Source: Gammaproteobacteria bacterium (GTDB taxonomy: Bacteria > Pseudomonadota > Gammaproteobacteria > JBIOEC01). From it: DNA of 32,000 bases. Positions 14,743 to 15,847 of the stretch are shown piece by piece. Location: contig OZ257143.1 of the NCBI GenBank assembly GCA_965279305.1, forward strand, positions 420,001 to 452,000, in the 5' to 3' direction. Within the stretch, counting starts at the first letter, position 1, and every line of letters begins with the position of its first letter. The notes under the pieces were generated by a model. That model worked only from the letters and a program-made list of their open reading frames with translations, did not search any database and was not told the DNA's origin. The position numbers and the translations under genes are program-made.

Positions 14743-15057
14743 ATGAACGCAAAAAAATTATCTTTGATCAGCGCTTTCTCTTTAGCACTTGCTGCTCAAG
14801 CAAGCGCGCACCCCTACGACCCTAACATTATGGATAAATGCTACGTTGTTAAAAACGGAACAGGCATGATTAAAGCGCACAAAAGTGATTGCAAATCAGT
14901 TAATGGAAAAAGTTCATGTGCAGGACAAAACGGACCTAACGATAAAGAAGCATGGATCTTTGTACCTAAAGGTCAGTGCGAAAAAATTAATGCCGGTGAT
15001 TGCTCAGGCATTACACCTGACACACGCGCTCGCTTAGAAGATGGTCAATGTAAATAA
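14743..15057 (+). CDS. DUF2282-family secreted Cys-rich peptide (bufferin BufA1-type RiPP precursor-like)
   Basis: RBS is GGAGG-5 nt-ATG at 14743. The signal peptide is ...ALAAQASA/HP. The core DKCYVV...SDCKS...SSCAGQ...EAWIFVPKGQCEKI matches the DUF2282 pattern I recall (eKCyG.a.aGkNDCa...sCaG....aW..Vp.G.C.ki). Two extra Cys sit in a C-terminal extension. Confidence 0.7.
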   Translation: MNAKKLSLISAFSLALAAQASAHPYDPNIMDKCYVVKNGTGMIKAHKSDCKSVNGKSSCAGQNGPNDKEAWIFVPKGQCEKINAGDCSGITPDTRARLEDGQCK

Positions 15058-15064
15058 GTGATTC

Positions 15065-15847
15065 ATGCTGAGACAACTTCAACAAGATTTTTACGCGCAT
15101 ATTATTAATGTTGAAAACTCAGCTATTTTAAATGCCATTACACCTGCTATCAATCTTGAAAAAAGATTATCTATCTACAGAGGCACTATTCGAGAAAAGT
15201 TAAGGAGAGCGTTAGAATTAACTTTTCCCAGTCTTTGGCAACTGGTAGGCAAAGAATGTGCCGATAATGTAGTTTATGCTTTTATTAGCGAAACAACCTG
15301 GCCCACTGAAAGTGTTTTAGATGATTGGGGAATAGAGTTTGTTAATTTTATAAAAACCTTTGAGCCACTTTCTTATTTAGTTTATTTAAGCGATATAATG
15401 CGGTTAGATTGGCTAAAACAGTTAAGCGAAAAATCAGCAGAAGTTAATATACTTTCTCTAAAAGAATTCCAACAGCACTTTAATGAAGAACCTGAAGCTT
15501 TTAAAATCTCACTTCATCCCTCTGTTTTTTTATTTCAATCACCTTATTCAATAAATGATATTCTTGATGTATTAGAAGGAAATCAATCTGAAATAACATT
15601 AAAACCTATCGCATCATTTGCTATTGTTTCTAGATTCAATCACGATATTGTGACTATATGGATCACAGAACCATTATTTTATTTTTTAACATTGCTTGTC
15701 ACGAATGATTTTTTATTGAATATTTTTGAAAAAACGTTAAATTATTATCCGGAATTTGATATGAGCAATGCAATGATGTTTCTTTTAAATAATGGCTTGA
15801 TTATTGATCATCAAGCTTTTGATTCTGCAGCCATGCCGTCAAAATAA
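15065..15847 (+). CDS. DUF2063-family protein (BufC / MNIO-partner-like, formerly 'putative DNA-binding')
   Basis: It starts 7 nt after the DUF2282 stop. The N-terminal pattern LQQDF...RLSIYRGTIREKLRRALELTFPSL..LVG...F......WG.EF.NFI and the later LSDIMRLDWLK fit the DUF2063 signature (RL.vYRnn...L..aL...fP...lG...F; la.lEwa). Confidence 0.65.
   Translation: MLRQLQQDFYAHIINVENSAILNAITPAINLEKRLSIYRGTIREKLRRALELTFPSLWQLVGKECADNVVYAFISETTWPTESVLDDWGIEFVNFIKTFEPLSYLVYLSDIMRLDWLKQLSEKSAEVNILSLKEFQQHFNEEPEAFKISLHPSVFLFQSPYSINDILDVLEGNQSEITLKPIASFAIVSRFNHDIVTIWITEPLFYFLTLLVTNDFLLNIFEKTLNYYPEFDMSNAMMFLLNNGLIIDHQAFDSAAMPSK

What the first reader, a model, noticed from the sequence alone, without database searches (positions are those of the whole stretch)
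14743..15847. Bufferin-like DUF2282 precursor coupled to DUF2063 (BufC-like) with no DUF692/MNIO enzyme
Established knowledge: DUF2282 peptides (BufA1) are Sec-exported, Cys-rich RiPP precursors. Their cysteines are converted to thiooxazoles by a DUF692 multinuclear non-heme iron oxidase (BufB/MNIO) acting with a DUF2063 partner (BufC). The usual operon order is DUF2282, DUF692, DUF2063, then often DoxX.

Seen here:
- The DUF2282 gene stops at 15057 and the DUF2063 gene starts at 15065, so there is no room for an MNIO.
- The next gene is the convergent ruvX, so there is no DoxX either.
- The precursor is atypical. Compared with the family consensus I recall, it has a 6-residue insertion between Cys1 and Cys2 (C-YVVKNGTGMIKAHKSD-C). 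It also has a C-terminal extension with two additional Cys (GDCSGITPDTRARLEDGQCK), giving 6 Cys in total.

Three explanations are possible. The modifying enzyme may be encoded elsewhere. The pair may be a decaying remnant in a streamlined genome. Or the DUF2063 protein and the peptide may function without MNIO chemistry, which would be new for this family.
Basis: partly seen in the sequence, partly recalled or inferred. Interest (0 to 1): 0.7.

Follow-up and report, generated by a model that had tools for sequence, protein, structure and literature searches.

The report
Bufferin peptide–partner pair lacking its enzyme
An uncultured Legionella relative keeps a copper-peptide precursor gene and its helper-protein gene under selection although the iron enzyme gene that normally sits between them was deleted long ago, so either the enzyme is encoded elsewhere or the pair works without it.

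Summary
The gene at 14743-15057 is a DUF2282/BufA1 precursor (57 bits), and 15065-15847 is a DUF2063/PME1 (BufC-like) partner (60 bits). They are 7 nt apart. Convergent ruvX follows, and the 32-kb window holds no MNIO and no DoxX.

New findings:
- The origin is resolved. A relative (L003) with the same flanking genes carries a full 6-Cys DUF2282-MNIO(BufB)-DUF2063...DoxX operon in this slot, so the window's pair is a deletion derivative.
- The MNIO-less pair recurs in two other diverged lineages (L001, L009). All ORFs are intact despite saturated dS. A neutral simulation kept the DUF2063 ORF open in 0 of 20,000 runs. Decay is rejected.
- The closest named MAG (L010) independently lost MNIO and DUF2063 but kept the peptide and DoxX.

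Unresolved: whether an MNIO lies elsewhere in the 1.87-Mb genome, which I could not access. My estimates are about 0.5 for MNIO in trans and about 0.3 for MNIO-independent function. Published work says PME1 genes are "almost universally" next to MNIO genes, so this is a real but modest exception: a new variant of a known kind.

The parts
14670..14698 (+). Promoter-like site (TGGAAA-17-TATAAT) upstream of the precursor gene
   Evidence: Consensus scan, 10 of 12 matches. This is a pattern match only, not evidence of function.
14733..14737 (+). Shine-Dalgarno GGAGG, 5 nt before the ATG at 14743
   Evidence: Read directly from the sequence. It favours 14743 over the upstream ATG at 14731 as the start.
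14743..15057 (+). DUF2282/BufA1-type bufferin precursor, 104 aa. It has a Sec-type signal peptide (MNAKKLSLISAFSLALAAQASA | HPYD, about 14743-14808) and a mature domain with 6 Cys (C33, C50, C59, C79, C87, C103).
   Evidence: PF10048 at 57.2 bits. C33, C50, C59 and C79 are invariant across 12 relatives. C87 and C103 are invariant in the 6-Cys clade. The signal peptide is assigned by inspection. The AF2 model has pLDDT of about 76-89 for the mature part.
15058..15064 (+). 7-nt spacer where bufB (MNIO) sits in the syntenic relative L003
15065..15439 (+). DUF2063 partner protein, N-terminal helical DUF2063 domain (residues 1 to about 125)
   Evidence: PF09836 at 59.8 bits, residues 4-96. The motifs LRRALELTFP, GKECAD, LDDWG and LDWLK are shared with MNIO-linked relatives.
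15440..15847 (+). DUF2063 partner protein, C-terminal RRE-like (peptide-binding) domain and stop codon
   Evidence: The AF2 model has pLDDT 60-94 over residues 125-253 with a strand-and-helix topology. Foldseek matches: TglHI holoenzyme chains with probability 0.99-1.0, and RRE proteins TbiB1 5v1v_A (TMt 0.67) and 6jx3_B.
15801..16241 (-). ruvX, the convergent flanking gene, which marks the right edge of the slot. DoxX abuts it in L003 and L010.
   Evidence: PF03652 at 150 bits. Synteny. The DUF2063 ORF here and the DoxX ORFs in L003 and L010 end at the same antisense stop inside the ruvX AAQIIL codons.

Best explanation
This is a reduced Buf1-type bufferin locus that has been inherited vertically and kept by selection.

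Shown:
- The locus encodes a Sec-exported 6-Cys DUF2282 precursor and a full-length PME1/BufC-type partner (DUF2063 N-domain plus RRE-like C-domain).
- The pair descends from a canonical bufA-bufB(MNIO)-bufC...DoxX operon at this same chromosomal slot, between an AmpH-like beta-lactamase-fold gene and ruvX. bufB and DoxX were deleted, most parsimoniously in the common ancestor of a small clade of uncultured Legionellales.
- Both remaining genes have stayed under purifying selection since then.

Inferred:
- The precursor is most likely still converted to a thiooxazole metallophore.
- The retained partner would bind the precursor through its RRE domain and recruit an MNIO encoded elsewhere in the 1.87-Mb genome through its conserved DUF2063 domain. 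This amounts to a split biosynthetic cluster.
- The modified peptide would then be exported by Sec, with C33-C79 forming a disulfide and C87-C103 probably forming a second one.
For: - Family assignment.
- Origin: L003 has the same flanks on both sides (L28, L33, DesA, beta-lactamase on one side; ruvX, DUF179, MTase, TonB, gshB, radC on the other). Between them it carries 6-Cys DUF2282, MNIO and DUF2063, then an efflux cluster and DoxX. Its MNIO is a BufB equivalog at 367.9 bits, above the 310 cutoff. L090 also shows a 6-Cys peptide followed by MNIO and DUF2063.
- Recurrence: the same MNIO-less pair abutting ruvX is found in L001. In L009 the pair is followed by a convergent partial ORF that translates as a RuvX C-terminus. 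All three DUF2063 ORFs end at the same antisense stop in ruvX.
- Selection: DUF2063 proteins are only 43-45% identical between lineages and dS exceeds 1.1, yet there are no stops. dN/dS is 0.11-0.25 for the peptide and 0.36-0.43 for DUF2063. The neutral simulation left the DUF2063 ORF open in 0 of 20,000 runs. The mature peptide shows no rate change relative to MNIO-linked L003.
- For MNIO in trans: the signature motifs of the DUF2063 domain remain conserved, and its Pfam scores (55-61 bits) stay within the family range. BufB and BufC together are required and sufficient for the modification, and copper binding needs the thiooxazoles (PMC11626156). Only 21 of 4072 complete genomes with DUF2282 lack an MNIO. 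The authors of that survey propose that precursors away from an MNIO may be modified from another locus (PMC12452194).
Against: - No MNIO was seen anywhere that I could look. There is none in the 32-kb window.
- None of the 120 listed relatives of a Legionella-type MNIO comes from a contig of 1,869,759 bp.
- The genome is small (1.87 Mb).
- 79 of 80 related ruvX loci carry no buf genes near ruvX.
- PME1 genes are reported as 'almost universally' adjacent to MNIO genes (PMC13097082), so trans use of a PME1 has no documented precedent.
- L010 lost both MNIO and DUF2063 yet kept the peptide. That suggests the peptide has value without locally encoded processing.
- N-domain Pfam scores are 8-14 bits below those of the closest MNIO-linked relatives. 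There is also a non-significant 1.4-2.4-fold excess of lineage-specific changes.
Confidence: 0.5

Rival explanations
1. MNIO-independent function. The genome has no MNIO. The 6-Cys peptide is exported unmodified and acts as a small disulfide- or thiolate-containing periplasmic protein, for example binding Cu(I) or another metal through Cys thiolates. The DUF2063/PME1 protein has kept or gained a role that does not need MNIO. One candidate is a cytoplasmic holdase that binds the signal-peptide or leader region and times Sec export.
For: - No MNIO was found in the window, and there is no fingerprint hit among the listed MNIO relatives.
- MNIO was lost twice from this slot while the peptide stayed constrained (window clade and L010).
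- Orphan DUF2282 genes of the same subfamily exist (L007/L008, L091).
- 21 complete genomes have DUF2282 but no MNIO. [quoted passage not shown] They also speculate that PME1 masks the signal peptide (PMC12452194).
- There is a slight erosion of N-domain scores.
Against: - In the model system the unmodified peptide does not bind copper usefully, and both BufB and BufC are needed (PMC11626156).
- The motifs of the DUF2063 domain, which by analogy with TglHI faces the MNIO, remain conserved after saturating divergence. That is hard to explain if its only known binding partner is gone.
- The central Cys residues and their flanks are invariant, with no rate change.
Confidence: 0.3
2. Decaying remnant. 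The pair is a non-functional leftover of a degraded operon in a streamlined genome.
For: - The genome is small.
- MNIO and DoxX are gone.
- The DUF2063 gene is AT-rich (GC 0.31).
Against: - ORFs are intact in three lineages with dS above 1.1, and dN/dS is well below 1.
- Neutral simulations kept the DUF2063 ORF open in 0 of 20,000 runs and the peptide ORF in 1.6-3.4%.
- Low GC is also seen for DUF2063 in MNIO-containing loci, so it is not a sign of decay.
- A good SD sequence and tight gene spacing are retained.
Confidence: 0.04
3. Enzyme replacement. A different oxidase has taken over the MNIO role and works with the retained DUF2063 partner. Candidates in the window are the uncharacterised xylose-isomerase-like TIM-barrel protein at 20894-21745(-) and the di-iron DesA desaturase at 12195-13355(-).
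For: - The TIM-barrel ORF is 283 aa, about the same length as an MNIO, and scores 94.5 bits on PF01261. From my own recollection, not tested here, that is the fold superfamily that includes MNIO.
- It has no homolog in any related locus that I fetched.
Against: - It shows no colinear sequence similarity to a BufB MNIO, and its best NCBIfam hits are sugar isomerases and epimerases.
- It lies 5 kb away on the other strand and overlaps a LysE exporter gene.
- DesA is also present next to the complete operon in L003, so it is not a replacement.
Confidence: 0.04

Closest known systems
Buf1-type bufferin gene cluster (bufA1-bufB1-bufC1-bufD1; gig-like operons) of Caulobacter vibrioides, Legionella and others
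   Same: - The precursor is a DUF2282 protein with a Sec signal peptide and four conserved Cys.
- The partner is a roughly 260-aa DUF2063 plus RRE protein.
- Gene order and tight coupling match.
- A syntenic relative (L003) carries the full cluster with a BufB-equivalog MNIO and DoxX.
   Different: - The MNIO (bufB) and DoxX (bufD) are absent from the locus and from the whole window.
- The precursor has an extra Cys pair (C87, C103) in a C-terminal tail.
PME1 (type 1 partner of MNIO enzymes), e.g. NGO1945 (PDB 3DEE), BufC1, HvfC, FonC
   Same: The DUF2063 N-domain scores above the Pfam cutoff. The length is 260 aa. An RRE-like C-domain is predicted.
   Different: - It is not encoded next to an MNIO, whereas PME1 genes are 'almost universally' so (PMC13097082).
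- It falls far below the HvfC equivalog cutoff (31.7 against 142 bits), as do its MNIO-linked relatives.
- It has no sequence-level PDB hit.
Bufferin-type precursor genes not associated with an MNIO gene, and the 21 complete genomes with DUF2282 but no MNIO (PMC12452194)
   Same: These are precursors separated from an MNIO. The published explanations (modification from another locus, or no modification) are the same two that remain open here.
   Different: Here a dedicated PME1 partner is retained alongside the precursor and is conserved across diverged lineages. I did not find that arrangement described in the papers I searched.
TglHI (Pseudomonas syringae pearlin MNIO holoenzyme, PDB 8HI7/8HCI)
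   Same: These entries are the best structural match to the predicted partner protein (probability 0.99-1.0). They serve as a model for how a partner's helical domain holds the MNIO while an RRE-like domain holds the peptide.
   Different: Sequence identity is only 12-13% and TM-score 0.42-0.48, and the N-domain of my model has low confidence. The precursor class is different and has no signal peptide.

Membership tests
DUF2282 / BufA1 bufferin precursor | Match to Pfam PF10048 above the gathering score | tested here: met
   57.2 bits against 22.4, residues 30-86 covering profile positions 1-52 of 53.
DUF2282 / BufA1 bufferin precursor | Four conserved Cys (the outer pair forms a disulfide, the central pair is modified) | tested here: met
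   C33, C50, C59 and C79 are invariant in 12 aligned relatives. The roles of the Cys come from PMC11626156.
DUF2282 / BufA1 bufferin precursor | N-terminal Sec signal peptide | tested here: met
   Assigned by inspection only: a KK n-region, a hydrophobic core, and ASA|H at residues 20-23. No signal-peptide predictor was available.
DUF2282 / BufA1 bufferin precursor | Central Cys converted to 5-thiooxazoles | not testable with these tools
   This needs mass spectrometry and UV absorbance near 305 nm on the native peptide.
PME1 / BufC-type MNIO partner (DUF2063 + RRE) | DUF2063 domain (PF09836) above the gathering score | tested here: met
   59.8 bits against 27.2. L009 scores 60.9 and L001 54.8. 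MNIO-linked relatives score 41.6-75.8.
PME1 / BufC-type MNIO partner (DUF2063 + RRE) | Full length of about 250-260 aa with a C-terminal RRE-fold domain | tested here: met
   The protein is 260 aa. The C-domain model has pLDDT 60-94. Foldseek matches the TglHI entries and the RRE proteins TbiB1 and 6jx3_B. The E-values are modest (2.6e-3 to 0.9).
PME1 / BufC-type MNIO partner (DUF2063 + RRE) | Encoded next to its MNIO enzyme | tested here: not met
   The gene lies 7 nt after the precursor gene and is followed by ruvX. There is no MNIO in the 32 kb.
HvfC family (NCBIfam NF050145 equivalog) | Score at or above 142 bits | tested here: not met
   31.7 bits. MNIO-linked relatives L003, L002 and L004 also score only 16-37 bits. 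This shows a different PME1 subfamily, not degeneration.
Complete Buf1-type bufferin gene cluster | An MNIO (PF05114 / BufB) gene in the cluster | tested here: not met
   It is absent from the window and present in the syntenic L003 at 367.9 bits on NF050167.
Complete Buf1-type bufferin gene cluster | A DoxX (bufD) gene. This is frequent but not universal. | tested here: not met
   The local DoxX HMM finds no hit in the window. DoxX abuts ruvX in L003 and L010.

The most novel reading that the evidence does not exclude
The genome contains no MNIO at all. A PME1/DUF2063 protein, so far regarded as a dedicated MNIO partner, then has an MNIO-independent function with its cognate DUF2282 precursor. 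One candidate function is holding the signal-peptide or leader region to control folding or Sec export of an unmodified Cys-rich periplasmic metal-binding protein. That function has been maintained by selection across a clade of Legionellales.
Probability: 0.3. Interest if true: 0.75.

Novelty: new variant of a known kind. Interest (0 to 1): 0.5.

Why it matters
Bufferins are the largest known group of MNIO-modified ribosomal peptides and a widespread copper-defence system. Their partner proteins (PME1) are currently treated as dedicated MNIO subunits that are always encoded beside the enzyme.

This clade offers a natural dissection of the three-component system. Within one chromosomal slot, related lineages show three states:
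- the full operon;
- the peptide plus partner, without the enzyme;
- the peptide plus DoxX, without the enzyme or the partner.

If the enzyme is elsewhere in the genome, the locus shows that a PME1 can serve as a precursor-specific adaptor for an MNIO encoded in trans. That would matter for genome-mining rules that require adjacency. If there is no enzyme, PME1 and unmodified DUF2282 proteins have a function of their own, which would be new. One whole-genome profile search would direct the experiments in either case.

Tried and rejected
- **Relative-rate tests.** I tested whether the DUF2063 N-domain sped up after MNIO loss. With L002 or P0009 as outgroup the effect looked strong: 2.3-5.7-fold more lineage-specific changes, p from 0.011 down to 1e-5. 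Quartet counts then showed that L003 groups with L002 (6:0:1), so that outgroup is invalid. With L004 or L092 as outgroup only a non-significant 1.4-2.4-fold trend remains. I report this as inconclusive.
- **GC trough.** The low GC over DUF2063 (0.31) is not a sign of relaxed constraint, because DUF2063 and MNIO genes are equally AT-shifted in the MNIO-containing loci.
- **Deletion scar.** The window's DUF2063 ends AMPSK and the DoxX proteins of L003 and L010 end AMPAK. Both ORFs read the antisense of conserved ruvX codons in the same frame, which has about a 1-in-3 chance of happening by coincidence. This is weak evidence only.
- **TIM-barrel ORF at 20894-21745 as a hidden MNIO.** There is no colinear similarity to BufB, and the family hits are to sugar isomerases.
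- **Finding the genome.** The GTDB-representative scan with DUF2063 returned nothing. Exact look-ups of P0001 and P0125 are not on record.
- **Contig-length fingerprint.** I searched MNIO homologs for a hit from a 1,869,759-bp contig.
- **Table S4 of PMC12452194.** The stored copy is truncated and does not reach this genome.
- **Structure matches.** The PDB sequence search with DUF2063 gave no hit. The peptide model has no PDB structural match.

Full report
**Observation**

The two ORFs are present exactly as described.
- The precursor gene is 14743-15057(+). A GGAGG at 14733-14737 lies 5 nt upstream of the ATG at 14743, which makes that start preferable to the ATG at 14731.
- The precursor product scores 57.2 bits on Pfam DUF2282 (cutoff 22.4).
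- The 260-aa product of 15065-15847(+) scores 59.8 bits on Pfam DUF2063 (cutoff 27.2) over residues 4-96.
- The two genes are 7 nt apart.
- The next gene is convergent ruvX (150 bits). Its 3' end overlaps the DUF2063 3' end by 47 nt.

No MNIO or DoxX is present in the window.
- Local HMMs built from 120 BufB-type MNIOs and from DoxX sequences found nothing in six-frame ORFs across the whole 32-kb window.
- Pfam scans of 30 of the 34 ORFs of 100 aa or more gave no PF05114 hit.

**Organism**

- The DUF2063 protein is 100% identical to a database entry from an NCBI/ENA contig of 1,869,759 bp.
- That genome is not among the GTDB species representatives.
- A ruvX-anchored scan places it among uncultured Legionellales and Coxiellaceae-like MAGs. 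The best RuvX match is only 65% identical.

**Origin of the arrangement**

L003, a Logan contig found through the peptide, has the same genes on both sides as the window: L28, L33, DesA desaturase and a beta-lactamase-fold gene on one side; ruvX, DUF179, a methyltransferase, TonB, gshB and radC on the other. Between them it carries a 6-Cys DUF2282 gene, an MNIO and a DUF2063 gene. An opposite-strand efflux cluster and DoxX, which abuts ruvX, follow. Its MNIO passes the BufB equivalog cutoff (367.9 bits against 310). L090 shows the same order of 6-Cys peptide, MNIO and DUF2063. The window's pair is therefore a canonical Buf1-type operon from which bufB and DoxX have been removed.

**Recurrence**

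- The MNIO-less pair next to ruvX recurs in L001. In L009 the pair is followed by a convergent partial ORF that translates as a RuvX C-terminus.
- The peptides of these loci form one clade with the window (MIKAHKSDC...QCEKIN; 62-76% identity).
- Their DUF2063 ORFs all end at the same antisense stop inside conserved ruvX codons. A single ancestral loss is the most parsimonious reading.
- In the sister peptide clade (L003, L090, L010), the closest named MAG (L010) has the beta-lactamase-fold gene, a 6-Cys DUF2282, DoxX and ruvX, with neither MNIO nor DUF2063. That is a second, independent loss of the enzyme with retention of the peptide.
- The other 79 ruvX loci from named genomes have none of these genes within the flanks held.

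**Selection**

- Between the three MNIO-less lineages dS is saturated (above 1.1) and DUF2063 proteins are only 43-45% identical, yet no ORF is broken.
- dN/dS is 0.11-0.25 for the peptide and 0.36-0.43 for DUF2063. For comparison, ruvX gives about 0.12 and gshB 0.055.
- Simulated neutral change at the observed 40-43% nucleotide divergence left the DUF2063 ORF open in 0 of 20,000 trials. The peptide ORF stayed open in 1.6-3.4%.
- The mature peptide shows no rate asymmetry relative to MNIO-linked L003 with six different outgroups.
- The decaying-remnant reading is therefore rejected.

**Tests that were not conclusive**

- An apparent 2.3-5.7-fold acceleration of the DUF2063 N-domain in the MNIO-less lineages depended on L002 or P0009 as the outgroup.
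- Quartet counts show that L003's protein groups with L002's (6:0:1), so that outgroup is invalid. With L004 or L092 as outgroup only a non-significant 1.4-2.4-fold trend remains.
- N-domain Pfam scores (55-61 bits) are a little below those of the closest MNIO-linked relatives (about 69 bits) but within the family range.
- The GC trough over DUF2063 is also seen in MNIO-containing loci.

**The proteins**

- The AF2 model of the partner has a poorly resolved helical N-domain, because the alignment had only three sequences. Its C-domain is confident (pLDDT 60-94).
- Its best PDB matches are the TglHI MNIO holoenzyme entries (probability 0.99-1.0). The C-domain also matches the lasso-peptide RRE proteins TbiB1 and 6jx3_B. 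This fits the published PME1 architecture of DUF2063 plus RRE.
- The motifs LRRALELTFP, GKECAD, LDDWG and LDWLK are shared with MNIO-linked relatives.

**The precursor's "atypical" features**

- The C-x16/17-C spacing and the KINAGD-x-SG tail are shared by dozens of representative clusters. They also occur in canonical operons (L004).
- The extra pair C87/C103 is confined to the small 6-Cys clade. The two Cys are always present or absent together, which suggests a second disulfide. The pair also occurs next to an MNIO in L003 and L090.
- None of these features is therefore tied to MNIO loss.

**Comparison with the literature**

- In Caulobacter Buf1 the central Cys become 5-thiooxazoles and the outer Cys form a disulfide. 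BufB and BufC together are required and sufficient, and copper binding needs the heterocycles (PMC11626156).
- Of 4072 complete genomes with DUF2282, 21 lack any MNIO. The survey's authors suggest that separated precursors are either modified from another locus or not modified. They also speculate that PME1 masks the signal peptide before modification (PMC12452194).
- I did not find a description of a conserved precursor-plus-PME1 pair without an MNIO.

**What remains open**

I could not reach the rest of the genome. The only indirect test was negative but weak: no contig-length fingerprint appeared among the 120 listed MNIO homologs.

- For an MNIO in trans: the conserved DUF2063 motifs, the unchanged constraint on the peptide, and the rarity of MNIO-free genomes.
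- Against: the small genome, the second loss in L010, and the orphan relatives L007/L008 and L091.

My estimates are about 0.5 for an MNIO encoded elsewhere and recruited by the retained partner, about 0.3 for an MNIO-independent role, and small probabilities for decay or enzyme replacement.

**Verdict**

The origin and the maintenance by selection are established, and the mechanism is half resolved. This is a new variant of a known kind, of moderate interest. Interest would rise substantially if a whole-genome search finds no MNIO.

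Noticed in passing
L010:6700-7697 (MAG Gammaproteobacteria bacterium GcC11-19, JBIOEC010000023.1): The closest named relative has a 6-Cys DUF2282 gene followed, after 167 nt, by DoxX and then ruvX. It has neither MNIO nor DUF2063. This is a second, different reduction of the same locus.
   Followed up: partly
L007:10001-10279, L008:548-826, L091:4359-4622: Orphan DUF2282 genes of the same extended subfamily. No MNIO, DUF2063 or DoxX lies within the flanks held. In L007 and L008 the gene sits next to mreD and a PBP2-like gene.
   Followed up: partly
L003:9350-10144 compared with L002:2974-3753: L003's DUF2063 groups with the Legionella-like L002 and P0009 proteins (quartet counts 6:0:1, N-domain 64% identical). 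It does not group with the syntenic MNIO-less clade. Either the MNIO-less proteins evolve faster, or the bufB-bufC module was exchanged in L003's lineage.
   Followed up: partly
window 12195-13355 (-): A DesA-family fatty-acid desaturase fused to an alpha-bundle tail derived from an ISL3 transposase (NF049918 at 584 bits, NF049919 at 114 bits). The same fusion is present in L003. It is a known NCBIfam architecture.
   Followed up: partly
window 20894-21745 (-): An uncharacterised 283-aa xylose-isomerase-like TIM-barrel protein (PF01261, 94.5 bits) that overlaps a LysE exporter gene by 10 nt. All NCBIfam hits are below their cutoffs. It has no homolog in any of the 92 fetched loci and is not an MNIO by sequence.
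   Followed up: partly
window 23795-25399 (-): A 534-aa protein with a eukaryotic-type Ser/Thr kinase domain (Pkinase, 132 bits) and an unassigned N-terminal region of about 250 aa. It resembles a Legionellales effector.
   Followed up: no
window 5613-6005 (-) and 4241-5629 (-): A short (130-aa) Fic-domain ORF whose 3' end overlaps the start of an SNF-family sodium symporter gene.
   Followed up: no
window 8416-11541 (-): A 1041-aa SF1 helicase (AAA_11/AAA_12) with an N-terminal region of about 370 aa that has no Pfam match.
   Followed up: no
window 15794-15817: An inverted repeat with an 8-bp stem lies at the convergent 3' overlap of DUF2063 and ruvX (overlap 15801-15847). It reads as terminator-like on both strands.
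   Followed up: no
P0009 (Legionella tunisiensis, 467 aa): A natural fusion of an MNIO and a DUF2063 domain in one polypeptide. Its MNIO part is 81% identical to L002's MNIO.
   Followed up: no
P0158, P0167, P0189 (DUF2282 representatives): These relatives carry a different extra Cys pair in the C-terminal tail (..ICDK..C..). Tail cysteines appear to have been gained independently more than once.
   Followed up: no
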